A stretch of DNA of 38,648 nt, taken from positions 1 through 38,648 of the IMG/VR virus record IMGVR_UViG_3300026311_000005; one strand, written 5' to 3'. The first letter of the stretch is position 1. Every line of letters starts with the position of its first letter. The position numbers and the translations under genes are program-made. This DNA comes from a virus. Of this stretch, positions 1-38,648 are shown piece by piece. Under the pieces are notes generated by a model that made no database searches, had not been told where the DNA came from, and saw only the letters and a program-made list of their open reading frames with translations.

Positions 1-127
1 CCCCTCCGAACAGAGGCCGGTCGTCCCGGTAAATGTAGCTGTTGGAGCCGTCGTCGGCGTCATCGATATGAACCGATCCCACCCGATGATAGACCAGGCA
101 GATCGGGACGGTATTCGCGACGAGAGC
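1..127. repeat. Terminal direct repeat, copy 1: bases 1-127 are identical to 38522-38648, so the unique genome unit is 38,521 bp
   Basis: Direct base-by-base comparison of the first and last 127 bases of the window; the repeat lies inside a coding region. Confidence 0.9.
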
Positions 128-13344: not shown

Positions 13345-13719
13345 CTAAGAATCCGCTATGCAGCGGATGACCCTAAAATCGATCATGAATACGTGCCGCC
13401 CGTTCTCGTCCACATAATGATCGGGGTGGCGGCCCTCCCAGATCATCGCCACTGAATGACCGAACGCCGTTTTTTTGTGGAGCGCGTCCCGGATCGCCAG
13501 GGCGTCGGTTTGCGCCGTCTCCAGGGACGCCCTCCTCACCTGGATCTGAACGCGAGGCTTCTCGATATCGCCCCCGCTCACGATATACCCGCTCCCCCCC
13601 GCCGGGAAGATGGCTATCTGCGAGGCGCTGGATTCGTCGAAGCCGTATGCTCGGATGTTGGAATATCCGGCGGCGGTGAGGGCGTCGGCCACATCCTTGA
13701 CGACCGGATCCATGGTCAT
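13345..13719 (-). CDS. Putative tail completion or tail terminator protein (124 aa)
   Basis: Size and position between the head-tail joining genes and the tail tube genes; weak resemblance only. Confidence 0.3.
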   Translation of the reverse strand: MTMDPVVKDVADALTAAGYSNIRAYGFDESSASQIAIFPAGGSGYIVSGGDIEKPRVQIQVRRASLETAQTDALAIRDALHKKTAFGHSVAMIWEGRHPDHYVDENGRHVFMIDFRVIRCIADS

Positions 13720-13723
13720 TTTT

Positions 13724-13948
13724 TCACCTCAGATACCGTCCGAACGATATCAGAACGAAGGTGAGGAGGGACACCCCTCCGAGGATGTACCATCTCCAGT
13801 TTTCCAGGGCGACCACCCGGCACTCCAGATCATGCTGTGTCTCGCAGATGCCCCCCTTCCCGGTGATCTTCGCATTCAGATGGCGCAGCTCGCCCGCTAT
13901 CTGAAGGAGGAGCTCTCGATCGGTCTGGGGAGCATCCGCCGACGCCAT
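13724..13948 (-). CDS. Small membrane protein (74 aa) with one C-terminal transmembrane helix
   Basis: Hydrophobic stretch WYILGGVSLLTFVLISFG at the C-terminus. Confidence 0.35.
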   Translation of the reverse strand: MASADAPQTDRELLLQIAGELRHLNAKITGKGGICETQHDLECRVVALENWRWYILGGVSLLTFVLISFGRYLR

Positions 13949-14131
13949 CTATTCGCCCCCGGTGGTCTGCCCCCTGGTAGCGAACCAGAATGCAGCGATC
14001 GTGCCAATGATCTGACCGAAGCTCTTCACGAGATCGATCATGACGGGATCCTGCGAATACGTCGCCATCCCGCCGAGGACGAGGAAGACCGCCAGGAACA
14101 ACACCGTGACGACTAACCCCTCGCCTGGCAT
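13949..14131 (-). CDS. Small two-transmembrane protein (60 aa), holin-like
   Basis: Start ATG overlaps the upstream stop (GTGATGCC); two hydrophobic helices; the ORF track shows a longer 167-aa ORF whose upstream part is judged spurious. Confidence 0.35.
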   Translation of the reverse strand: MPGEGLVVTVLFLAVFLVLGGMATYSQDPVMIDLVKSFGQIIGTIAAFWFATRGQTTGGE

Positions 14132-14472
14132 CACTCCTCCCCCGTCGGCTCGGTGAGCGCATATTCGTATAGGCCCGCAGCCTTCAGCCGATCCTCCAGG
14201 GCTTCCACCGGGTCCACCCGGCGGCCCATGCCTGTCGTCCACTCGATCCACTGTCGCCGGGTCATCCCGAACGATCCGCCGGGAACGTCGCCGCATTGCG
14301 GGGACGCGACATACTTGAGTCCCACAATCCGGGTTCCCGTGAACCCGGTGGGCATCAGGATGGCCCCCGGATCGTTCGTGCATCCCAACCGTTTCGTCGG
14401 CTCGGTGGAGCACCCCTCCAGGGGCTCCGCCCAATTCGTCTCCGGACAACATCCTATCTTTTCTTCCGCCAT
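14131..14472 (-). CDS. Cys-containing hypothetical protein (113 aa)
   Basis: ORF track; start overlaps the upstream stop as TAATG. Confidence 0.35.
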   Translation of the reverse strand: MAEEKIGCCPETNWAEPLEGCSTEPTKRLGCTNDPGAILMPTGFTGTRIVGLKYVASPQCGDVPGGSFGMTRRQWIEWTTGMGRRVDPVEALEDRLKAAGLYEYALTEPTGEE

Positions 14473-14978
14473 TATATCGCCTCGATGAACAGCTCCGTTT
14501 CGATCGGAGCCGACACGCTAGTATTCACGTCGAATGATCCTGTCATGTCCACTTCTGCCAGATGGGCCGGATTGCCATGACATCCGACGGCCTGGATGAT
14601 CCTCTCGCGGTACGTCCCGACGCCTTTCAGGGCGTACACCGAAGATCCGTCCTCCACGCGAGCTCGCGACGAGAGGACCGTAGCCCCCGAGGCCTGAGCC
14701 AGATGGGAGAGGCCGTAGTTCCCGATCATCCGGAACGATCCGCCCTCGCCGTCCATGTCCAGGCCCGCGAAGGCTCCAGAGTCGGTCAGGATCTGGCCGT
14801 AAGCCATGCTGGCGTTGCGTCCCCCCGCAGCCACCGTCTGGCCTCCGAGGCTGGACCGGAGCGAGAAGTCCCCGTCCCCGGCGTAGTCGCCCCTGATCTC
14901 GATACCGGCGGCCGGGGCGATCATGGTCATAAGGAGGATGGGGACTGATAATATCGCAAATCCGTTCATGTTTTCCAT
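14472..14978 (-). CDS. Secreted or membrane-anchored protein (168 aa) with an N-terminal signal peptide
   Basis: N-terminus MENMNGFAILSVPILLMTMIAPAAG is a typical signal sequence. Confidence 0.4.
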   Translation of the reverse strand: MENMNGFAILSVPILLMTMIAPAAGIEIRGDYAGDGDFSLRSSLGGQTVAAGGRNASMAYGQILTDSGAFAGLDMDGEGGSFRMIGNYGLSHLAQASGATVLSSRARVEDGSSVYALKGVGTYRERIIQAVGCHGNPAHLAEVDMTGSFDVNTSVSAPIETELFIEAI

Positions 14979-14981
14979 CTC

Positions 14982-15341
14982 CTAAGTTTTGCGTAAATGT
15001 TTTTCTACGTATTTCGCCGCGTTCGGTGCCAATTGCTCCACCGGATCAACGATGAAATGGCTTTTGCCGGTCGTGTGATTGAGAGATGCGTCCTGATGCT
15101 GCCGATAAATGTAGCTCTCCGCCGGGCCACCACCGCCGAGGACGATCACGCCCCGTGCGTCGTCGCGTTCGGTTCCCAGGGAGTTTCGCATCGTCCCACC
15201 ATTGACGGGCGCTACCGGGCACTGCCTTTTCATCTCGGATAGGACCTCTCCCTTCGCCCATTCTTCGACCCCATCCAACGCCGCCTCTTTCGCCCGCGCG
15301 ATGACGGCTCCGGCGGCCCATTCGGTGATCCGGATACTCAT
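14982..15341 (-). CDS. Head-tail joining protein, HK97 gp10-like
   Basis: Size about 119 aa, position, and resemblance to the HK97 gp10 family. Confidence 0.45.
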   Translation of the reverse strand: MSIRITEWAAGAVIARAKEAALDGVEEWAKGEVLSEMKRQCPVAPVNGGTMRNSLGTERDDARGVIVLGGGGPAESYIYRQHQDASLNHTTGKSHFIVDPVEQLAPNAAKYVEKHLRKT

Positions 15342-15634
15342 AGCCTCACCTCATATTCTATGATCTGACCTCCGACGCCCGTCGGTGAGAGGACCGCCAG
15401 GACGGGGCGAGGATCCCCGCCGTTGTAGATCACGAAGTCGCCCGGCTGGACGGCTGACATGGTGCGGAGGAGGGCGGTGGAGGTGATCTCCTGGCCGCTG
15501 GCGGTGCGGACGAGCTTGATCTCTTCGGTATATCGGCATTTCTGGTTTTCATAATCGGTATACGTCGGCCCGTACAGGCCCGAGCCCGTCGCCTTCCGCC
15601 AGACGAAGGTTTGGTGCATGGGGGTTATGCTCAT
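15338..15634 (-). CDS. Putative head closure or head-tail adaptor protein (98 aa)
   Basis: Size and position; 4-nt overlaps with both neighbours. Confidence 0.35.
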   Translation of the reverse strand: MSITPMHQTFVWRKATGSGLYGPTYTDYENQKCRYTEEIKLVRTASGQEITSTALLRTMSAVQPGDFVIYNGGDPRPVLAVLSPTGVGGQIIEYEVRL

Positions 15635-16401
15635 TTCTTCGCCACCAGAATCTCAGTGCACCGGCATCTCGGATGCAGAGTCGGCCCGTCGCCGCCGCCC
15701 TCAAATTGCCCATTGGGGAGTTCCGCCCTTTTCCCGGACATGGGACGGCATAGGGGGCATAGCCTTTCGTCCGGGGTGACGAGCCATTCGCGCTCCCAGT
15801 CGTCAGGGCTCAGGATGCCCCGCTTTACCGCCCCCCGGTTGGCTTCTCGATATCCCTCGTTGGCCGCCTTGTGGCCCTCAGTGAGGGCTATTGTCCCGGC
15901 TCGCCACTTGAGGAGCTTCTGACGGTATCGGTCCACCGCCAGCTTGCGGGCCGATTCGTCCATGTCCAGCTTCTCAAGACCGGCCTCGAAGTTTCGGACG
16001 GCCTGAACGTGCTGGGGGATGAGTCCGACGTTCTGCTTGATGATCTTGATTTGTTCATTCGGCGAAAGTCCCTCCTGGAAACCTCGAAGGATCGTCTCTC
16101 GGATCCCGGCCTTCGTCCCGGCGTCGATGTACTTGATCTCGTCGCCGCAGAACTTTTCCAGCCAGGCGATTGCCTCTGGGGATTTGAGGTCGAAAGAGAC
16201 GCCCATCCCCACAAGCTTCCCGATCTCTTCGAGCTGAGCCTCGCCGCCCTCCAGGAAGGCTGCCTCGATGAAAGGAGAGGGGTCGAATTTGGTCGCTGGG
16301 ATATTCTTTCGGCCGTCGATCTCTACCTCCCTCTGCCACGCCAGGAAGGCCTCGGTGATCGTCCTCGCCCACTTGTCGCCGACGTCCTGGGTAGTGGTCA
16401 T
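15631..16401 (-). CDS. Minor head (head morphogenesis) protein, Mu F / SPP1 gp7 family
   Basis: C-terminal signature ...ALTEGH...CPLCRPMSGK...HPRCRCTE matching the Phage_Mu_F domain. Confidence 0.7.
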   Translation of the reverse strand: MTTTQDVGDKWARTITEAFLAWQREVEIDGRKNIPATKFDPSPFIEAAFLEGGEAQLEEIGKLVGMGVSFDLKSPEAIAWLEKFCGDEIKYIDAGTKAGIRETILRGFQEGLSPNEQIKIIKQNVGLIPQHVQAVRNFEAGLEKLDMDESARKLAVDRYRQKLLKWRAGTIALTEGHKAANEGYREANRGAVKRGILSPDDWEREWLVTPDERLCPLCRPMSGKRAELPNGQFEGGGDGPTLHPRCRCTEILVAKK

Positions 16402-16906: not shown

Positions 16907-17053
16907 TCAGTCCTCAGTCTTCTTCTTTCGTACTCTCTTCACCTGCTCCGGCTCCGGGTCGGTGAGCTCCGCCGAAAGAAGGATCTCGGCAAGCCTGGTG
17001 TCGATGTCGGCCAGATCGTAATCTCCATAGGCCCAGGTAGATTCATATGCCAT
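16907..17053 (-). CDS. Small acidic protein (about 48 aa)
   Basis: Manual translation MAYESTWAYGDYDLADIDTRL...; ATG overlaps the upstream stop (TGATG). Confidence 0.25.
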   Translation of the reverse strand: MAYESTWAYGDYDLADIDTRLAEILLSAELTDPEPEQVKRVRKKKTED

Positions 17054-17328
17054 CAGTAGTCCCCCCGCAGGTCGTCCTCTTTGGCCTCGACTAGATCGAG
17101 CCGCTTCGCCTCAAGTGCCTGCTTGCTATCGAAACCCAGCCGCGCATACATCGGCATCGGGTTCTTCACCTTCTTGGTCTCCGGGACCTCACCGGTCTTC
17201 TCGTCCATCTCGGTGACGATCTCCACCTCGGAGTCGTCCGGAACTCCCGCCAACAGCACCACCATAGCCTCCGGGCAATCCCGTTCCAGCGCCACTCTGT
17301 CGTCCGGTGACAGGTGGGGCCAATGCAC
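17053..17328 (-). CDS. Hypothetical protein (91 aa)
   Basis: ORF track; position in a chain of overlapping genes. Confidence 0.3.
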   Translation of the reverse strand: MHWPHLSPDDRVALERDCPEAMVVLLAGVPDDSEVEIVTEMDEKTGEVPETKKVKNPMPMYARLGFDSKQALEAKRLDLVEAKEDDLRGDY

Positions 17329-17404
17329 GCCACGCCGCCTGAGTTCCGCCGCTGCCTGAGTCGAATCCGTAATACCGCCTCCTATGAGTCACCGTAATTT
17401 TTTT

Positions 17405-18484
17405 CTATACAGGCTCCGCGACCGCCCGAGCGCCGGCATCCGAATTCGCACCCCAGCGAGCGTGAGCCGCAACCCGACACCGCGAGCCGCAATACGAGCC
17501 GTAACCCCAATTGCCGCCCGCACGCAGCTTTACGTCTCCGGATGTACCCTGGCGTTGTATCGACCCCCGTGAGCCTGGGAGATCGAACCAAGACCACGCA
17601 GGATCTACCGTCGGATCTGTGAGTCCATCTATCCGGAAGCTCTGGTCAGCTAACCACTGGTACACGACCCCGCAACAGTCGATACATCCGCAGTTGGAGA
17701 TCATGCTCCGGCCCGCAGTGTCGAGATGGTGGCCGGTCGTGCCTGGATCTGCGGACCCGGCGATGTTCGTCTCCTCGTTCGATCCAGCTGCGAATAGTTG
17801 GAACTCTCGATCTGTCGGCAGCCTGCATCCGACAGCGCCGAGATCGTCCACGAAATCCATCCAGTCGCGAGTATCGGATATCGTGCCGCCGTTCACGCTG
17901 GCGGTGTTGACGCCCGTGCCCGATACCAGGTATATCCCGACCCAGATGTTAGCCTCCTCGCACCAAATCATTCCCTCCGGGGCGGCGATGCCCCTTGGCC
18001 GGTGCATCAGATCCCAGATCGATCCGCTCCGGTTGTCGCCGCAGTGGATGTCTCCGATCGCGTGATTCTTGAACGGGTGGCCCACTGGCAGATTCACCAT
18101 CGTCGCCGGGGTGCAGTGGAACCCCCCGATCTTTCGGGCGGTCGCGGCCGCATAACCGCTAGGAGTCGTAGAGTTGGCTGAAATCTTGATCGTAGGTGCC
18201 CGGCCGGTCGCTGGAACGCACGAGTACAGATAGAAATTTTTGCCGGCTCGGTTCGCCGGCGTCCTGTAATCGGTCCCGACGACGGTATCCCAGGTCGCTT
18301 CCAGCGCCAGATCTAGCTCGATCTGGTCGTCGAGGATGTACCCTTTCCCGCCGACGTTGACCTCAATCCCGTCAGCGGGCGACACTAGAACGTCCCGGTC
18401 GCCTGATTTCATCGACCACTTGTCGTCGATCCGCCGGACGTAGTGACCGGGTTTCGCGGCTAGATCGGGCTGGACGTAGATCAT
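17405..18484 (-). CDS. Structural-module protein with a C-terminal formylglycine-generating-enzyme-like (FGE-sulfatase type, C-type lectin fold) domain
   Basis: Motifs CRLPTDREFQLFAAGS (compare RLPTEAEWEYAARGG) and VKLRAGGNWGYGSYCGSRCRVAAHARWG...GAR (compare RGGSW...R.A.R...GFR). Confidence 0.5.
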   Translation of the reverse strand: MIYVQPDLAAKPGHYVRRIDDKWSMKSGDRDVLVSPADGIEVNVGGKGYILDDQIELDLALEATWDTVVGTDYRTPANRAGKNFYLYSCVPATGRAPTIKISANSTTPSGYAAATARKIGGFHCTPATMVNLPVGHPFKNHAIGDIHCGDNRSGSIWDLMHRPRGIAAPEGMIWCEEANIWVGIYLVSGTGVNTASVNGGTISDTRDWMDFVDDLGAVGCRLPTDREFQLFAAGSNEETNIAGSADPGTTGHHLDTAGRSMISNCGCIDCCGVVYQWLADQSFRIDGLTDPTVDPAWSWFDLPGSRGSIQRQGTSGDVKLRAGGNWGYGSYCGSRCRVAAHARWGANSDAGARAVAEPV

Positions 18485-18906
18485 GCTACGTCCTCCACGT
18501 AGTAGCTGACGCCGCCGGTGATCCGATCGGCGGATACAGCGTCTAGCACCAGTGCCTCATTCGTCCCGAGGTTGATCGGGATATTCGGGGACAGCTCAAT
18601 TGCCGAGAACTGTAGCGTCATGATCGTGGTCGATCCTGATTTGACGGCCACTTCGACGTTGGCCAGCGAGGTCAGGACGATCGATGTGATCCGAATACGT
18701 TTTCCGGCTCCTGGTGCTGGGACGATCGTCTGAGCTGACCCGGACGAGAAATCTATCGCAACGTGGCTGAGGGAGGGCGGGTCGATAGAACTGATTTTCC
18801 CGTCATCGTCCACCATGAGGGGGACGAGATCTCCGCCCACTGTCCGGCCATATGCCACCTTCGCACCGATCCGTCCGCCGTATACGATTTCTTCGTCTGC
18901 CATCAT
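18481..18906 (-). CDS. Hypothetical head-module protein (141 aa), possibly a decoration protein
   Basis: ORF track; 4-nt overlap with the downstream gene. Confidence 0.35.
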   Translation of the reverse strand: MMADEEIVYGGRIGAKVAYGRTVGGDLVPLMVDDDGKISSIDPPSLSHVAIDFSSGSAQTIVPAPGAGKRIRITSIVLTSLANVEVAVKSGSTTIMTLQFSAIELSPNIPINLGTNEALVLDAVSADRITGGVSYYVEDVA

Positions 18907-19061
18907 TCCTCCAGGATCTCGATCGTCCCCTCTTCAGCCATCAGGTCCAGGAGCGCATCGTCTAGGTAGATCCTAGCCTCGTCATACGGGACGATCTCGC
19001 CTTCATCGAAGACGTTGCCGCCCCTAATCGACGTCCGTCGGTTGAACCTCACGCGCCTCAT
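18903..19061 (-). CDS. Small protein (about 52 aa)
   Basis: Manual translation MRRVRFNRRTSIRGGNVFDEGEIVPYDEARIYLDDALLDLMAEEGTIEILEE with GGAGG upstream; stop overlaps the next ATG. Confidence 0.25.
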   Translation of the reverse strand: MRRVRFNRRTSIRGGNVFDEGEIVPYDEARIYLDDALLDLMAEEGTIEILEE

Positions 19062-19151: not shown

Positions 19152-19676
19152 TCATCCGCTCGTCTCCAGCACGGCGATGCGGGCGGCGAGCTCATCGAGG
19201 ATCGCTGATATCGACTCGTTCGACGTGACGTTCGTCACCGCCGAGAAGTTCCCAATTTCTCCATATTGTGTGGTCGCGTTGGTCCAGAGATCGAGCACGT
19301 CTCCATCGAGTTCGTTGATCGCTGCGGCGACATCGTTGGCCGTAGTGGTGATATTCGCGATATCTCCGAGATAGTCATAGATGGTGGTAGTGTCCGAAGA
19401 AGCGATCGTTCCGCCGACGCTGAGGTTGCCGCTCAGGTACGCCCCGCCGTCGGAGTATATGTCGCCCACGACATTGACGTCTCCCTCCACGTCCTGGTCT
19501 CCGACGACGGTATGGTTTCCCCCGATATACCCGTCCCCGGATATATTGAGGCCCGCCCCAATGAAGTAGCCGGAGGTCGTGTAGTTGGTGGACCGAGGAT
19601 ACCATGAAGACTGAGAGGCGGCCGCCCCGATCAGGAGGGCCGCCGTTACGATGATTGCGACTAGTTCGCGTTTCAT
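19152..19676 (-). CDS. Secreted or membrane-anchored protein (174 aa), unusually rich in N-x-S/T sequons
   Basis: Signal-like N-terminus MKRELVAIIVTAALLIGAAAS; nine N-x-S/T sequons; GGAGTGAGGAG upstream; immediately after the capsid gene. Confidence 0.45.
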   Translation of the reverse strand: MKRELVAIIVTAALLIGAAASQSSWYPRSTNYTTSGYFIGAGLNISGDGYIGGNHTVVGDQDVEGDVNVVGDIYSDGGAYLSGNLSVGGTIASSDTTTIYDYLGDIANITTTANDVAAAINELDGDVLDLWTNATTQYGEIGNFSAVTNVTSNESISAILDELAARIAVLETSG

Positions 19677-26081: not shown

Positions 26082-26129
26082 ATCTCCCTCTCTTTCACAT
26101 ATTTTTAGGCTATAATAATCCAAAACATA

Positions 26130-26326
26130 GTAAGATCTTACTTTTACTTATCCACGCTTGTAAAGCGCGGACATGTAAACATCTTACTTATTCGCTTTTC
26201 TCTCTGTATCTATCCTCCTTCCTCCAACTAACCACCTATCCAAAAACACCCGAAATCACGAGCATTTTGTAGTTAGCTGGAACCCCTTTAGTAAAGGATC
26301 GCTCAAAAGTAAAAGTAAGATCTTAC
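26130..26326. promoter_or_regulatory. AT-rich control region bounded by perfect inverted 18-bp elements, each containing the 12-bp palindrome GTAAGATCTTAC
   Basis: GTAAGATCTTACTTTTAC at 26130-26147 and its exact reverse complement at 26309-26326; degenerate third site near 26175-26188; TATAAT-like and polypyrimidine tracts between them. Confidence 0.5.
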
Positions 26327-26333
26327 AACTTAT

Positions 26334-26826: not shown

Positions 26827-26952
26827 TCACGCGCCCCCGTCCCTCATCGCTTCGGCGAGATCCAGCACCCTTTCAAGACAGTCGCCGATGGTATCGCTTG
26901 CATCTCCGAACTTTGCCAGCCGGGCCTTATCTTTAATCCGGACTCGGATCAT
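26827..26952 (-). CDS. Small protein, paralogue 1 (41 aa)
   Basis: Manual translation MIRVRIKDKARLAKFGDASDTIGDCLERVLDLAEAMRDGGA; last 44 nt identical to the paralogue at 27301. Confidence 0.35.
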   Translation of the reverse strand: MIRVRIKDKARLAKFGDASDTIGDCLERVLDLAEAMRDGGA

Positions 26953-27094
26953 AGTCGTCTCCATGCTAGATAGCAACGCGCGTATTGCTTATAAAGATAA
27001 CGGTATCGCGCCATGTGGCAACGCATGTTCCCTGCTATTGCCAATTGCAAGTTCAGGGCGGGGAGTAGTCACTCAGATTCCTCTGCATCCAAAT

Positions 27095-27298
27095 TCATCG
27101 CCGCCTCTTCACGCCCCGCCCGCCCTCGCCGGGTTCACGTACGCCACTCCAGTACTTGTGGCGGTATTCCGTTTCTAGCCTCTCGACTTCGACGAACTTT
27201 GCAAGAGCCCGGCTAGCGACAGCGATATCCTCCCATTCGTCGGCCTCGGCGATAACATGGCACAGAGCCATCACGATTCGTCGGGTGGTGGGTTCCAT
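27095..27298 (-). CDS. Hypothetical acidic protein (about 67 aa)
   Basis: ORF track 27095..27304; ATG at 27298 lies 3 nt after the upstream stop. Confidence 0.3.
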   Translation of the reverse strand: MEPTTRRIVMALCHVIAEADEWEDIAVASRALAKFVEVERLETEYRHKYWSGVREPGEGGRGVKRRR

Positions 27299-27300
27299 CG

Positions 27301-27444
27301 TCACGCGCCCCCGTCCCTCATCGCTTCGGCGAGATCCAGCACCCGCGCCAAACAGTCGGCCATCGAATCGGAAGCGTTCCCGAAGTTGGCGAGCCGGGCG
27401 TGATCGGCCCTATTCACCCGAATGAGTATTTTATCATCTGACAT
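27301..27444 (-). CDS. Small protein, paralogue 2 (47 aa)
   Basis: Manual translation MSDDKILIRVNRADHARLANFGNASDSMADCLARVLDLAEAMRDGGA; TATA-like TTAATA about 25 nt upstream. Confidence 0.35.
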   Translation of the reverse strand: MSDDKILIRVNRADHARLANFGNASDSMADCLARVLDLAEAMRDGGA

Positions 27445-27535: not shown

Positions 27536-27672
27536 GTGTCGCGTCGAGTCGAGTCAGGTCCGGTCGTGGCAGTCGCGTCGAGTCAGGTCGGGTCGGGTCG
27601 GGTCGTGGCAGTCGAGTCGCGTCAGGTCATGTCGAGTCGCGTCGAGTCCAGTCGGGTCCGGTCGTGGCAGTC
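27536..27672. repeat. Pentanucleotide array 1: about 27 tandem NNGTC units in three blocks, each ending in GTGGCAGTC
   Basis: Read directly: GTGTC GCGTC GAGTC GAGTC AGGTC CGGTC GTGGCAGTC ...; 5-bp periodicity, six GAGTC units. Confidence 0.8.
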
Positions 27673-27696: not shown

Positions 27697-28332
27697 GTGG
27701 CAGCAAAAGCAAAAGCGCCCGCCCAGAGCGGGCCTATAACCCTGAAAAGGATCGAGTTGGAAACGGTTGTCGTCCCGATCGTGGGGACCTCTGAGCTGAT
27801 CGTTCACAAGTGGAGCGATAAAGCCAAGCGCCAGATGCTAGACAAGCAGATGAAACCGGGGACCAGATCAAAGAAGGAAGCAAAAGACCCGGTAGCCGAC
27901 TACGAGGCGTCGAAATATAAGACGCCCGAAGGCAAAGATGCGATGGTGACGACCGCCTTCAAGAAGGCGATGGTTGACGCCCTCCGCTACTTCGACGGTG
28001 TGAGTATGGTCCTGGGAAAGACCGCCTTCTTTGTAGAGGGCGAGTACGTCGAGCTGGAGGGCGAGCCCCGGATGAGAGAAGACATGGTGAGGCTGGACGG
28101 CGGTGGGTCTGCTGACATCCGATACCGGGCCGGGTATCCTGAATGGAAGACGAAGCTCACCATCACCTACGCAAAGGATATCCTCACTATGGAGTCGGTC
28201 CTGTCCCTGGTAGAAGCAGCGGGACAGACCCAGGGCGTTGGCGAATGGAGGCCGTCGTCCAAGAAGACCACCGGTCCCTTCGGTCGGTTCACGATCGACA
28301 CGTCCCGGAAAATTGAGGTGATCACTGCATGA
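27697..28332 (+). CDS. Hypothetical protein (211 aa), first gene of the repeat-flanked plus-strand cassette
   Basis: ORF track; GTG start with GGAG about 11 nt upstream; no recognisable motif. Confidence 0.5.
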   Translation: MAAKAKAPAQSGPITLKRIELETVVVPIVGTSELIVHKWSDKAKRQMLDKQMKPGTRSKKEAKDPVADYEASKYKTPEGKDAMVTTAFKKAMVDALRYFDGVSMVLGKTAFFVEGEYVELEGEPRMREDMVRLDGGGSADIRYRAGYPEWKTKLTITYAKDILTMESVLSLVEAAGQTQGVGEWRPSSKKTTGPFGRFTIDTSRKIEVITA

Positions 28333-28853
28333 CCAAAATGGTATATGCCTGGAGAGAGGGGCGGAGCGCCAGCCCCTACCTTTCCAACGTATCCCCCCAG
28401 GTGGTCGGTGAAGAGCTGGAGAAGGTCCGAGAACAGGGGGGGGGGATGATCTTTCCCCGTGCCGTCATCGATCACGCCCGACCATCCGACTCGCCCCTCC
28501 ATTCATGCTTTGAATGGAACGACACGGAAGCCGCCGAGAAGTTCCGAATCGTCCAGGCGAGGGGGGTCATCAAGTCTGTCGAGATCGTCGAGATCAAAGG
28601 CAAACCACTCCCCTCCCCCATCGTAGCCAACGTCAGCGTGACGCGCCGGGCCGTTGTGCCGGGCGATCCAAGGATCAGGTATTATGAGAGCACTCCTCTC
28701 GCCCTCCAGGACCCGGAGCTTCGGGACCAGGTACTCCAGAAGGCTCTTAGGGAGCTGGAATCCTGGCGGGAACGATACGACGCCTTTACCGAGTTCAGTC
28801 TGGTCTTCGGCTCGATAGAAGCCATCCAGAAAAAGATAAGATCTTCAGCCTGA
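28329..28853 (+). CDS. Hypothetical protein (174 aa), second gene of the cassette
   Basis: ORF track; 4-nt overlap with the upstream gene. Confidence 0.5.
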   Translation: MTKMVYAWREGRSASPYLSNVSPQVVGEELEKVREQGGGMIFPRAVIDHARPSDSPLHSCFEWNDTEAAEKFRIVQARGVIKSVEIVEIKGKPLPSPIVANVSVTRRAVVPGDPRIRYYESTPLALQDPELRDQVLQKALRELESWRERYDAFTEFSLVFGSIEAIQKKIRSSA

Positions 28854-28860: not shown

Positions 28861-28868
28861 TTTTCATG

Positions 28869-29025
28869 GCGGTCGGGTCAGGTCGTGTCGGGTCCGGTCG
28901 AGTCGAGTCGTGTCAAGGCAGTCGGGTCCGGTCGGGTCGAGTCATGTCTCGTCACGTCGAGTCAAGTCAAGGCAGTCGCGTCGTGTCGTGTCATGTCACG
29001 TCGTGTCGCGTCTGGTCGTGGCAGC
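28869..29025. repeat. Pentanucleotide array 2: about 26 tandem NNGTC units in three blocks punctuated by AAGGCAGTC, AAGGCAGTC and GTGGCAGCC
   Basis: Read directly; same unit type and orientation as array 1. Confidence 0.8.
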
Positions 29026-29060
29026 CGTGGCGTGTCTTGCTGCCACTATTCTATTTTTAT
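29017..29060 (+). terminator. Putative intrinsic terminator of the plus-strand cassette
   Basis: Stem GTGGCAGC, 13-nt loop, GCTGCCAC, followed by TATTCTATTTTTAT. Confidence 0.45.
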
Positions 29061-37721: not shown

Positions 37722-38648
37722 CTACATCACCCTCGTCGGTACCCTGACCTCGAACGACTCCACGAGGAAGTCGCTAGTGAGATTATTCGAGCTGGGCGCT
37801 ATCCTCGATATCGCCAGCCTCACCCTTTGACCGGCAGACCAACCAAGGGAGCTGACGGTCGCCGTCCAGGTGTAGATGACGGGCCGGTTCTGGGTGGCGT
37901 TGCAGGCTAGGTCGCCTGAGTCGCTGGCGGTCGAGTAAGCAGTATCGACAGACCCTGCGCCGCTCGACAGGACCAACTGCTTCACCCTGAACTTAACGTT
38001 CTTGCCGGCGGCCGCCGTCTTGGCCCACCCCACGAGGGCGAACGTTATGGTTCCCCCAGTGTTGATGTCGGCCGGCACCACGAAGGCCGGCGCCTGGGCC
38101 GTCTCCTCGGTAGTGTCATCGAATGCAAGCGTAACCACCGCCTGGTTCGTCCCATCCAATAGGTATTCCTCGGGCGAGTTGGCGGCGTCAAGGTTGAATG
38201 CGGTGGGCGGCAGCACGAGGATCCTCGTGCTGTAGAGATACGTCCAGGCCGGATCGTCTGCACCCATCGACAGAACGGAGTACTGGGAGCCTTTGGCGAG
38301 CCTGGCGGCGTCACCGGATCCCCGGTATAGCAGGTCTCCCCGGGTCGTGAGGATCTGGTTCAGAAGGGTCGCCAGGGTGGCCCAGGCCGGATCGTCTGCA
38401 CCCATCGACAGAACGGAGTACTGGGAGCCTTTGGCGAGCCTGGCAGAAGTTCCGTCCGAGCGGTATAAGAGATCTCCCCTTGTGGTCAGGATCGTATCTA
38501 GTATCGCCGCCGGAGTCGAAACCCCTCCGAACAGAGGCCGGTCGTCCCGGTAAATGTAGCTGTTGGAGCCGTCGTCGGCGTCATCGATATGAACCGATCC
38601 CACCCGATGATAGACCAGGCAGATCGGGACGGTATTCGCGACGAGAGC
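37722..38648 (-). CDS. Tail fibre protein, C-terminal portion (38522-38648 duplicates 1-127); contains a tandem 46-aa repeat
   Basis: ORF track 37722..38603 with no stop upstream to the window end; internal repeat ILTTRGDLLYR...ARLAKGSQYSVLSMGADDPAW occurs twice; last large gene of the tail cluster. Confidence 0.6.
   Translation of the reverse strand, partial: ALVANTVPICLVYHRVGSVHIDDADDGSNSYIYRDDRPLFGGVSTPAAILDTILTTRGDLLYRSDGTSARLAKGSQYSVLSMGADDPAWATLATLLNQILTTRGDLLYRGSGDAARLAKGSQYSVLSMGADDPAWTYLYSTRILVLPPTAFNLDAANSPEEYLLDGTNQAVVTLAFDDTTEETAQAPAFVVPADINTGGTITFALVGWAKTAAAGKNVKFRVKQLVLSSGAGSVDTAYSTASDSGDLACNATQNRPVIYTWTATVSSLGWSAGQRVRLAISRIAPSSNNLTSDFLVESFEVRVPTRVM
38522..38648. repeat. Terminal direct repeat, copy 2 (identical to 1-127)
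   Basis: Same comparison as above. Confidence 0.9.

What the first reader, a model, noticed from the sequence alone, without database searches (positions are those of the whole stretch)
13724..14978. Four translationally coupled small genes (secreted, Cys-rich, two-TM, one-TM) embedded between connector and tail genes
Secreted and membrane proteins are unexpected inside a head-tail joining block. The 60-aa two-TM and 74-aa one-TM proteins look like a holin and partner, so this may be a lysis cassette in an unusual position or a moron encoding exclusion or envelope-interacting functions.
Basis: partly seen in the sequence, partly recalled or inferred. Interest (0 to 1): 0.45.

Follow-up and report, generated by a model that had tools for sequence, protein, structure and literature searches.

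The report
Candidate lysis cassette of a methanogen virus
Four tightly coupled small genes sit between the neck and tail genes of a complete 38.5-kb tailed virus that probably infects a methanogenic archaeon; they are most likely its cell-exit (lysis) module, which matters because no such module has been defined for tailed viruses of archaea.

Summary
Four minus-strand genes overlap or abut at every junction: A (168 aa, signal peptide), B (113 aa, Cys-rich), C (60 aa, membrane) and D (74 aa, C-terminal TM). They lie between a neck gene and the tail terminator, and all are under purifying selection.

The window is a complete circular genome of 38,521 bp. It has no peptidoglycan hydrolase or integrase, and no other cluster of small membrane proteins.

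D belongs to a large phage family with an invariant ALENWRW motif next to its TM (partly Pfam DUF7201). In 22 of 24 bacterial-phage loci this gene directly follows endolysin, spanin and holin genes.

C is holin-like in size and shape only. A and B are orphan families and always occur as a pair. A models confidently as a six-stranded beta-meander with no enzyme fold. B stays unexplained.

The A-B-C-D module recurs in divergent relatives and recombines gene by gene.

The host is probably Methanosarcinales, most likely Methanothrix-like. The evidence is gene sharing with virus vir515, a contig binned in a Methanotrichaceae MAG, and a secreted protein rich in N-glycosylation sequons.

Best reading: a late-expressed egress cassette, with C and D forming the membrane lesion and A-B acting as a new envelope effector. 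Nothing has been tested functionally, and the A-B role is inference.

The parts
14472..14978 (-). Gene A: 168-aa exported protein. It has an N-terminal Sec-type signal peptide (probable true start at 14969) and a mature domain of about 140 aa predicted as six long antiparallel beta strands. It defines an orphan family that always occurs just upstream of gene B.
14131..14472 (-). Gene B: 113-aa Cys-rich protein with no TM and no signal peptide. It has a basic N-terminus followed by a G-C-C motif and 2-3 further Cys, then a conserved C-terminal core (GxRVDPVE...LYEYALTEP). It is an orphan family, start/stop-overlapped with A.
   Evidence: Six clusters found. Alignment. Only 5 hits among 1.84 billion representatives. 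No PDB sequence hit. Poor AF2 model (pLDDT 56). Absent from 185,579 species genomes. dN/dS 0.04-0.30.
13949..14131 (-). Gene C: 60-aa small membrane protein, holin-like in architecture. It has one strong and one weaker hydrophobic segment and a conserved C-terminal WFATRG motif. Some relatives carry non-homologous two-TM proteins of 56-80 aa in its place.
   Evidence: Replacement variants. No Pfam or PHROG family.
13724..13948 (-). Gene D: 74-aa tail-anchored membrane protein. It has an N-terminal helical part with 2 Cys, the invariant juxtamembrane motif R-x2-A-L-E-N-W-R-W, and a C-terminal TM. It is a short member of a widespread phage family related to DUF7201 and phrog_5225.
   Evidence: 33 IMG/VR loci. 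Family hits of relatives. 859 clusters. Position after lysis genes in bacterial phages.
14982..15341 (-). Upstream flank: 119-aa neck/tail-completion-type gene. Its stop lies 3 nt before A's ORF. It marks the 5' edge of the accessory-gene slot.
   Evidence: Homologues precede the slot in L030 and in vir515.
13345..13719 (-). Downstream flank: tail terminator. Its ribosome-binding site overlaps D's stop codon.
   Evidence: PF12691, E 1e-7. Sequence.

Best explanation
The four genes form a late-expressed cell-exit (lysis) cassette. The virus is a complete, non-integrating 38.5-kb siphovirus whose host is most likely a Methanosarcinales archaeon, probably Methanothrix-like.

Proposed mechanism:
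1. The cassette is transcribed and translated together with the neck and tail genes, because it has no promoter or terminator of its own and every junction is coupled. This is shown by sequence.
2. C (a small two-segment membrane protein) and D (tail-anchored, ALENWRW juxtamembrane motif) accumulate in the cytoplasmic membrane and produce the timed membrane lesion, as a holin and its partner do. This is inferred from architecture and from where D's relatives sit in bacterial-phage lysis cassettes.
3. A is exported by the Sec pathway during late infection and waits outside the membrane. B is made in the cytoplasm in fixed stoichiometry with A and reaches A only after the membrane is breached. 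Together they attack or loosen the proteinaceous archaeal envelope (S-layer or sheath), taking the place of a peptidoglycan hydrolase. This step is inference only. It rests on strict A-B pairing, A's export signal, and the absence of any known lytic enzyme in the complete genome.
For: - Coupling and lack of internal promoter or terminator.
- Real, constrained genes: dN/dS 0.04-0.5.
- Complete genome: 127-nt terminal overlap.
- No PG hydrolase or integrase among all ORFs of at least 78 aa or in the end-spanning tail-fibre gene.
- A, C and D plus one other signal-peptide protein are the only strongly hydrophobic small proteins in the genome.
- D family: the invariant ALENWRW+TM motif is found in 33 IMG/VR loci. 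Relatives hit DUF7201 (E to 6e-12), phrog_5225 (8e-7) and, weakly, the PHROG 'hemolysin' (XhlA-type) families.
- In 22 of 24 bacterial-phage loci, the D-like gene directly follows o-spanin, i-spanin or holin genes and lies 1-2.5 kb after a GH19 endolysin.
- The A-B-C-D module recurs in divergent viruses: L022 in the same slot, and L025 directly after the capsid gene. An analogous exported / CC-rich / two-TM / D set occurs in L032.
- B, C and D are more conserved than the neighbouring structural genes between the window and L022.
- Mosaic exchange typical of lysis modules: C alone is replaced in L003; C-D are replaced by four other small, mostly membrane, proteins in L006; A-B are exchanged in L004 (dS 0.8 against 0.05-0.12 in the flanks).
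- Archaeal host. The 320-aa protein has its only match among 50,697 phage records in vir515, whose GenBank host field is Methanosarcinales. An 83-aa protein is 93% identical to vir515. L061, a contig in a Methanotrichaceae MAG, carries D at 86% identity next to vir515-like tail genes. The secreted protein at 19152-19676 has 9 N-X-S/T sequons among 12 Asn, against a shuffle mean of 2.3 (P<2e-4), and vir515 has a similar protein.
Against: - No member of any of the four families has been tested experimentally.
- C matches no holin family, and its C-terminal tail (RGQTTGGE) is not strongly charged.
- D itself does not reach PF10779 (XhlA) or PF23831. The link runs through longer relatives and a shared motif.
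- The bacterial-phage loci with D-like genes share synteny (a primase lies downstream). They therefore represent perhaps 3-4 independent lineages, not 22.
- The D-like protein's own role in those cassettes is unknown. It is annotated only as hypothetical, for example in Stenotrophomonas phage DLP6.
- A has no enzyme-like fold and B has no confident model.
- A-B occur without adjacent C-D in L013, L014 and L026.
- Host assignment is indirect. One related short contig is binned in a Syntrophomonas MAG, and the capsid, portal and terminase are about 33-41% identical to phages of Firmicutes and Actinobacteria.
Confidence: 0.5

Rival explanations
1. Split function. C and D are the lysis-timing membrane proteins, but A-B is an unrelated late extracellular function. 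Examples would be superinfection exclusion, receptor masking, or protecting progeny from adsorbing to debris. Here A would bind an envelope component from outside, with B as its cytoplasmic partner or chaperone.
For: - A-B behave as an independent unit. They occur without C-D in L013, L014 and L026.
- A-B were exchanged separately from C-D between the window and L004.
- Rapid allele turnover of A-B (65-90% identity while the flanks are 90-100%) fits host-interaction proteins.
Against: - There is no own promoter or terminator and no integrase, so a lysogen could not express the genes.
- A-B are start/stop-overlapped with C in the window, L004 and L022, and travel with C-D into a different genomic position in L025.
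- No similarity to any known exclusion protein was found in Pfam or PHROGs. PADLOC was not searched.
Confidence: 0.25
2. The host is a bacterium, for example a high-GC Firmicute or a syntroph such as Syntrophomonas. The cassette is then an ordinary holin module whose endolysin is simply too divergent to recognise, possibly A or B.
For: - Capsid, terminase and portal are closest (33-42%) to phages of Firmicutes and Actinobacteria.
- A related 3.9-kb contig is binned in a Syntrophomonas MAG.
- D's family is otherwise found in bacterial phages.
Against: - No ORF in the complete genome hits any peptidoglycan-hydrolase model.
- Gene sharing points to a virus assigned to Methanosarcinales, including one protein with no other match among 50,697 phage records.
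- A contig binned in a Methanotrichaceae MAG carries D at 86% identity.
- The sequon-rich exported protein has P<2e-4.
- The window's GC of 0.59 does not fit Syntrophomonas, which is about 45% (my own knowledge).
- Binning of contigs under 4 kb is unreliable in either direction.
Confidence: 0.15
3. The four proteins are virion or assembly components, such as neck or tail accessory proteins or assembly chaperones, and have no membrane activity. The hydrophobic segments would then be buried or interaction surfaces.
For: - The genes sit inside the head-tail joining block and are translationally coupled to structural genes.
- In an actinophage-like contig (L056), the D-like gene also lies among tail genes.
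Against: - The slot's content is not conserved. Relatives carry different, non-homologous small membrane proteins, or only two of them, between the same flanking genes.
- The module sits elsewhere in L025, L014 and L026.
- A has a canonical cleavable signal peptide, conserved in position ahead of the conserved domain. That is incompatible with cytoplasmic virion assembly.
- No PHROG structural family is hit.
Confidence: 0.07

Closest known systems
XhlA-XhlB-XlyA lysis cassette of Bacillus subtilis PBSX / SPbeta-type prophages (XhlA = Pfam PF10779 'haemolysin XhlA')
   Same: - A small tail-anchored protein with an N-terminal helical part and one C-terminal TM (like D) is encoded next to a small two-TM holin (like C) within a late operon.
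- Longer relatives of D give weak hits to the PHROG 'hemolysin' families that hold XhlA-type proteins (phrog_1193, E 3e-4; phrog_937, E 2e-3).
- From memory, XhlA has a similar LE-D-N-x-x-W-x-W-R juxtamembrane motif. This was not checked here.
   Different: - D does not match PF10779 even at E<=1.
- Gene order is reversed: here the holin-like gene comes first and the XhlA-like gene second.
- No amidase follows.
- The host is probably an archaeon without murein.
DUF7201 (PF23831) / phrog_451 N-terminal part / phrog_5225: coiled-coil plus ALENWRW plus TM proteins of large aquatic and soil phages
   Same: - The invariant R-x2-A-L-E-N-W-R-W-x3-G motif lies immediately before a C-terminal TM.
- A profile that includes D retrieves 859 clusters, many carrying PF23831.
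- The gene sits at the 3' end of endolysin-spanin-holin clusters.
   Different: - D is half the length (74 against 133-157 aa) and lacks most of the coiled coil, so it does not itself score on PF23831.
- The family has no assigned function.
Class II holins / pinholins (small two-TM phage membrane proteins such as S21)
   Same: C is 60 aa with two hydrophobic segments, the second weakly hydrophobic. It is encoded in a late operon next to another small membrane protein, and non-homologous proteins of the same shape replace it in relatives.
   Different: - No sequence family match.
- No dual-start motif.
- The C-terminal tail is short and nearly uncharged.
- No adjacent recognisable endolysin.
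P2-like phage gene order (lysis genes Y, K, lysA, lysB between head genes and tail genes R, S)
   Same: A lysis block is embedded between head-completion and tail-completion genes and is expressed from the late structural operon (my own knowledge of P2).
   Different: - P2 is a myovirus of Gram-negative bacteria with a recognisable endolysin and spanins.
- There is no homology to A-D.
Pseudomurein endoisopeptidases PeiW/PeiP of Methanobacteriales viruses
   Same: They are the only established lytic enzymes of tailed methanogen viruses (PMC10791045, PMC12596118), so they would be the functional counterpart of whatever A-B do.
   Different: - No similarity was detected. Nothing in the genome hits a peptidase or Pei-type model.
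- Methanosarcinales lack pseudomurein (my own knowledge).

Membership tests
Holin (generic definition; gene C) | Small protein (under about 150 aa) with at least one transmembrane domain | tested here: met
   C is 60 aa. It has one strong hydrophobic segment (KD up to 2.6) and a weaker second one (about 1.3-1.4). Only hydropathy was used; no dedicated TM predictor was available.
Holin (generic definition; gene C) | Highly charged hydrophilic C-terminal tail | tested here: not met
   The tail is RGQTTGGE, with one R, one E and a net charge of about 0. Homologues have slightly longer tails that also carry little charge.
Holin (generic definition; gene C) | Encoded adjacent to an endolysin gene | tested here: not met
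   No endolysin-type domain was found in A, B or anywhere else in the complete genome.
Holin (generic definition; gene C) | Sequence membership in a described holin family | tested here: not met
   No Pfam hit at E<=1. The only PHROG hit is phrog_38564 (unknown function, E 0.14).
Holin (generic definition; gene C) | Forms lethal membrane lesions at a programmed time | not testable with these tools
   This needs expression experiments.
XhlA (Pfam PF10779; gene D) | Significant match to the family model | tested here: not met
   D has no Pfam hit at E<=1. Its relatives do not hit PF10779 at E<=0.1. Only weak PHROG 'hemolysin' hits were seen, for longer relatives (E 3e-4 to 3e-2).
XhlA (Pfam PF10779; gene D) | Architecture: N-terminal helical/coiled-coil region and a single C-terminal TM, encoded beside a holin | tested here: met
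   The TM is at residues about 54-72 and the N-terminal part is polar. The gene lies directly downstream of C.
DUF7201-related ALENWRW family (gene D) | Invariant juxtamembrane motif R-x2-[AN]-L-E-N-W-R-W followed by a TM | tested here: met
   The motif is present in D and invariant across 12 aligned members at 24-95% identity. It retrieved 33 viral loci.
DUF7201-related ALENWRW family (gene D) | Match to PF23831 (the long coiled-coil region) | tested here: not met
   D itself gives no hit. The 119-157-aa relatives do, with E 6e-12 to 2e-3. D lacks most of the coiled coil.
Endolysin / peptidoglycan or pseudomurein hydrolase (genes A, B) | Recognisable catalytic domain by sequence or fold | tested here: not met
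   - No hits in Pfam, PHROGs or PDB sequences.
- B's model is too poor to judge.
Spanins (i-spanin / o-spanin) | i-spanin: N-terminal TM plus periplasmic coiled coil. o-spanin: lipobox lipoprotein. | tested here: not met
   D has the opposite topology, with its TM at the C-terminus. A has no lipobox Cys after its signal peptide. No PHROG spanin family is hit. A probable archaeal host also has no outer membrane.
Moron (independently expressed accessory gene in a late operon) | Own promoter and terminator flanking the insert | tested here: not met
   - No terminator-like site lies on the minus strand inside 13724-14978.
- The only promoter-like match is a 9/12 hit at chance level (11 found against 6.7+/-2.3 expected over 18.5 kb).
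- All junctions are coupled.
- The scan covers sigma-70-type promoters only. Archaeal promoters were not formally scanned.

The most novel reading that the evidence does not exclude
A and B together are a previously unknown kind of archaeal envelope-breaching effector. A would be a Sec-exported beta-meander protein. B would be a small Cys-rich partner released through a C/D membrane lesion. Together they would open the proteinaceous S-layer or sheath of a Methanothrix-like methanogen. If so, this would be the first defined holin-plus-effector egress system of a tailed archaeal virus, linked by descent (through D) to bacterial phage lysis cassettes.
Probability: 0.25. Interest if true: 0.85.

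Novelty: new variant of a known kind. Interest (0 to 1): 0.58.

Why it matters
How tailed viruses leave archaeal cells is an open question. [quoted passage not shown] A 2025 survey found detectable lytic proteins in only 10.9% of archaeal dsDNA viruses (PMC12596118).

This cassette offers a concrete, compact candidate of four genes and 1.25 kb that could be tested directly by expression. It has three useful features:
- One component (D) shares an invariant motif with proteins sitting in textbook endolysin-spanin-holin cassettes of bacterial phages.
- Two components (A, B) are orphan proteins that may replace the murein hydrolase.
- The likely hosts, acetoclastic methanogens of anaerobic digesters, are important for methane production.

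If the host turns out to be bacterial, the finding shrinks to a divergent holin module carrying two orphan genes.

Tried and rejected
- **Family scans of A-D.** Pfam and PHROGs gave nothing usable.
- **Known phage records.** Megablast of 8 kb around the cassette, and tblastn of A, against 50,697 phage records found no match.
- **Methanoculleus virus Blf4.** I tested whether the virus is related to Blf4. It is not; only methylase and MuF fragments match.
- **Genome scan with the B profile.** No relative was found in 185,579 species genomes.
- **Genome scan with the D profile.** It gave only three loci, with conflicting MAG assignments.
- **B remote homology.** HMMER against 1.84 billion representatives gave 5 hits. 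One of them, a 1992-aa repeat protein, looks like a chance match to a beta-strand motif.
- **B structure.** pLDDT was 56, so the model was unusable and not searched.
- **A as an amphipathic pore former.** The strand-face hydropathy pattern is only moderate, so this is not decisive.
- **NCBIfam on ten non-structural proteins** for archaeal signatures gave nothing.
- **L025's right flank** as a host clue was rejected. It is a high-GC segment that looks like a chimeric assembly.
- **tRNA or att-site search:** no tRNAs.
- **The compendium paper describing vir515** is not in the paper library. The host call therefore rests on the GenBank record alone.
Full report
**1. The observation.**
The minus strand of 13724-14978 carries four ORFs:

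| Gene | Coordinates | Length |
|---|---|---|
| A | 14472-14978 | 168 aa |
| B | 14131-14472 | 113 aa |
| C | 13949-14131 | 60 aa |
| D | 13724-13948 | 74 aa |

The junctions are TAATG (A/B), TGATG (B/C) and TAGATG (C/D). D's stop codon lies inside the GAGGTGA ribosome-binding site of the next gene. A begins 3 nt after the stop of the upstream gene, although an AGGAG placed 9 nt before the second ATG (14969) makes that the likelier start.

Hydropathy shows:
- an N-terminal signal-like segment in A;
- no hydrophobic segment but five Cys in B;
- one strong and one weaker hydrophobic segment in C;
- a C-terminal TM in D.

Upstream lie a connector (DnaT_2-type), a MuF-like protein, a head-closure protein (phrog_3881) and a 119-aa neck protein. 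Downstream lie the tail terminator (PF12691) and tail tube genes.

All four are genuine genes. Pairwise dN/dS against relatives is 0.04-0.5.

**2. The genome around it.**
The first and last 127 nt of the window are identical, so the window is a complete circular or terminally redundant genome of 38,521 bp. The gene crossing the ends is a collagen-like tail fibre with a weak CBM5/12 hit.

Scanning every ORF of at least 78 aa, plus this fibre, against Pfam found the following:
- present: terminase, HK97-type capsid, scaffold, tape measure, two DNA methylases and an Mtd-like receptor-binding protein;
- absent: any peptidoglycan hydrolase, protease or integrase.

A hydropathy scan of all ORFs of at least 40 aa shows that A, C and D are the only cluster of small hydrophobic proteins. 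The only other likely genes with a strongly hydrophobic segment are the tape measure protein and the signal-peptide protein at 19152-19676.

No terminator-like site lies on the coding strand within the cassette. The only promoter-like match there is a chance-level 9/12 hit.

**3. Relatives and mobility of the module.**
Twelve IMG/VR contigs carry close relatives. A-B always lie between the neck gene and the tail terminator. The cassette is nonetheless a mosaic:

| Locus | What differs from the window |
|---|---|
| L004 | A and B are 79% and 66-73% identical with dS about 0.8. The flanks, C and D are 89-100% identical; dS is 0.05-0.12 in the flanks and D and about 0 in C. |
| L003 | C alone is replaced by an unrelated 71-aa two-TM protein. 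|
| L005/L006/L009-L011 | C-D are replaced by four other small genes: 66 aa soluble, 61 aa two-TM, 103 aa with an N-terminal TM plus coiled coil, and 56 aa one-TM. |

More distant viruses also hold the module:
- L022 has A-B-C plus a D-like gene in the same slot.
- L025 (GC 0.54) has A-B-x-C-D directly after its capsid gene.
- L013, L014 and L026 have only A-B, downstream of small winged-helix genes.
- L032 has an analogous set: an exported 202-aa protein, a 111-aa protein starting MAGFDCCGGG, a two-TM protein ending VTRGRTS, and D.
- L030 and vir515 carry a Cys-rich protein plus a small two-TM protein, with or without D, in the same slot.

Between the window and L022, B and C are more conserved (64% and 53% identity) than the neighbouring structural genes (43%).

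So the four genes are functionally linked, mobile, and exchanged gene by gene. Lysis modules behave in this way.

**4. What each protein is.**

*Gene D.*
A pattern search with the motif ALENWRW found 33 viral loci. A profile built from twelve members found 859 protein clusters. All share R-x2-A-L-E-N-W-R-W-x3-G directly before a C-terminal TM.

The longer members (119-157 aa) hit several families:
- Pfam DUF7201 (E down to 6e-12);
- the N-terminal part of phrog_451;
- phrog_5225;
- weakly, the PHROG 'hemolysin' (XhlA-type) families.

In 22 of 24 such loci from bacterial phages, the gene immediately follows lysis genes and precedes a DNA primase. The lysis genes are Rz-like spanins (phrog_739, 89, 812), in some loci a GTA-type holin (phrog_3427, PF11351), and a GH19 endolysin with a PG-binding domain (phrog_181, E to 1e-85).

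These loci share synteny and represent only a few independent lineages. No member has a known function. The one cultured-phage homologue, in Stenotrophomonas phage DLP6, is annotated as hypothetical.

*Gene C.*
C has no family. Close homologues in IMG/VR carry the conserved WFATRG end.

*Gene A.*
A defines a family of only 28 clusters in 5.8 billion proteins. AlphaFold2 on a 20-sequence alignment gives a confident model (pLDDT 84, core above 90). It has six antiparallel strands of about 19 residues each after the signal peptide.

Fold searches gave no useful match:
- Foldseek against PDB and BFVD finds nothing significant.

This is a binding or barrel-like beta-meander, not a hydrolase fold.

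*Gene B.*
B is an orphan:
- six clusters;
- five hits among 1.84 billion representatives;
- no PDB sequence match;
- a poor model.

Its basic N-terminus followed by G-C-C and further Cys is conserved even in the non-homologous L032 analogue.

**5. Host.**
Head genes resemble those of Firmicutes and Actinobacteria phages at 33-42% identity, which does not settle the host. Four observations point to a Methanosarcinales archaeon:
- The second-best terminase hit is vir515 (BK063672), whose GenBank host field reads Methanosarcinales (source: bioreactor). The window shares with vir515 an 83-aa protein at 93% identity and a 320-aa protein at 50%. That 320-aa protein has no other match among 50,697 phage records.
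- A contig binned in a Methanotrichaceae MAG (L061) carries D at 86% identity, next to tail genes 54-62% identical to vir515's.
- In the exported protein at 19152-19676, 9 of 12 Asn sit in N-X-S/T sequons, against a shuffle mean of 2.3 (P<2e-4). vir515 has a similar protein after its capsid gene. This suggests N-glycosylation, which is general in archaea.
- No murein hydrolase is encoded.

Against this, a related 3.9-kb contig is binned in a Syntrophomonas MAG.

The virus is unrelated to Methanoculleus virus Blf4. I put an archaeal host at roughly three in four.

**6. Mechanism.**
Shown by sequence: the cassette is co-expressed with late structural genes, A carries an export signal, C and D are membrane proteins, and the four genes travel together.

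Inferred:
- C and D make the timed membrane lesion. D would play the part that XhlA-type or DUF7201-type proteins play beside holins.
- A waits outside the membrane, and B joins it once the membrane is breached.
- Together they open the proteinaceous envelope.

The last step is the weakest.

The main rival keeps C-D as lysis proteins and gives A-B a separate extracellular role, such as exclusion or receptor masking. A structural role is unlikely, because the slot's content is not conserved and A has a cleavable signal peptide.

**7. Comparison with known systems, and novelty.**
- The architecture resembles the XhlA-XhlB pair of Bacillus prophages. Membership in XhlA was tested and not met.
- The gene order resembles P2, where lysis genes lie between head and tail genes.
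- C fits the generic holin shape but fails three of the four testable criteria.

Reviews state that holins of archaeal viruses remain elusive and uncharacterised (PMC10791045). A 2025 survey found lytic proteins detectable in only 10.9% of archaeal dsDNA viruses (PMC12596118).

I therefore class this as a new variant of a known kind: a holin-type cassette with two orphan effector candidates, in a probable methanogen virus. Interest is moderate to high, limited by the indirect host call and the absence of any functional evidence.

Noticed in passing
window 1-127 and 38522-38648: The two ends are identical over exactly 127 nt, so the window is a complete circular or terminally redundant genome of 38,521 bp. 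A 548-aa tail-fibre gene with collagen-like G-x-y repeats and a weak CBM5/12 hit runs across the junction (minus strand, about 853 down to 1, then 38521 down to 37722).
   Followed up: yes
window 19152-19676 (-): This is a signal-peptide protein encoded directly after the major capsid gene. Nine of its 12 Asn lie in N-X-S/T sequons (shuffle mean 2.3, P<2e-4). Its C-terminal two thirds differ between close relatives; only the first 59 aa match in L004, L005 and L012. vir515 has a similar sequon-rich exported protein at the same place. It is probably an N-glycosylated exported protein of unknown role.
   Followed up: partly
window 17405-18484 (-): This 359-aa protein has an Mtd second domain (PF21916, E 5e-13) and a weak FGE-sulfatase / C-type-lectin-like C-terminus. 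It therefore resembles the variable receptor-binding target of diversity-generating retroelements. No reverse transcriptase is encoded in the complete genome. The gene and its neighbours (17053-19061) are absent from relatives L004, L005 and L012.
   Followed up: partly
window 27538-27658 and 28864-29036: Two arrays of about 25 pentanucleotide repeats (GTCGN) flank the two plus-strand genes 27697-28332 (phrog_4652) and 28329-28853 (phrog_15946). They may be iterons of a replication origin or protein-binding arrays.
   Followed up: no
window 26100-26330 and 26840-27442: An AT-rich divergent control region carries two copies of the palindrome GTAAGATCTTAC. Nearby are two paralogous small minus-strand ORFs ending ...LDLAEAMRDGGA. 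Several A/T-rich octamers (TTATATAA, TTTATAAG, TTATTATA) sit 20-30 nt upstream of start codons and look more like archaeal TATA boxes than sigma-70 promoters.
   Followed up: no
window 15631-16401 (-): The MuF/SPP1-gp7-type head morphogenesis gene sits between the connector and head-closure genes rather than next to the portal. In L014 and L026 it is separated from the head genes by a block on the opposite strand.
   Followed up: no
L034-L055 (IMG/VR), e.g. L040 3836-7281: In large low-GC bacterial-phage contigs, the order GH19 endolysin - acidic protein - i-spanin/o-spanin - (holin) - ALENWRW protein - DNA primase is conserved. PHROG family phrog_451 appears to be a fusion profile: positions 5-113 match the ALENWRW protein and positions 130-461 match the primase.
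   Followed up: partly
L025 10700-13546: The right end of this ENA contig switches to very high GC, with Arg-rich ORFs in all frames, a beta-carbonic anhydrase and an amidohydrolase-like gene. It is probably a chimeric assembly and was not used for host inference.
   Followed up: no
window 14440-14472 (B N-terminus) and L032 2382-2714: The motif 'basic residues then G-(G)-C-C' at the extreme N-terminus is shared by all B homologues (MAEEKIGCC, MAKKKIDGGCC, MKDKIDGGCCGG). It is also present in the apparently non-homologous 111-aa protein occupying the B position in L032 (MAGFDCCGGG). Its meaning is unknown; metal binding or lipid modification are possibilities.
   Followed up: no
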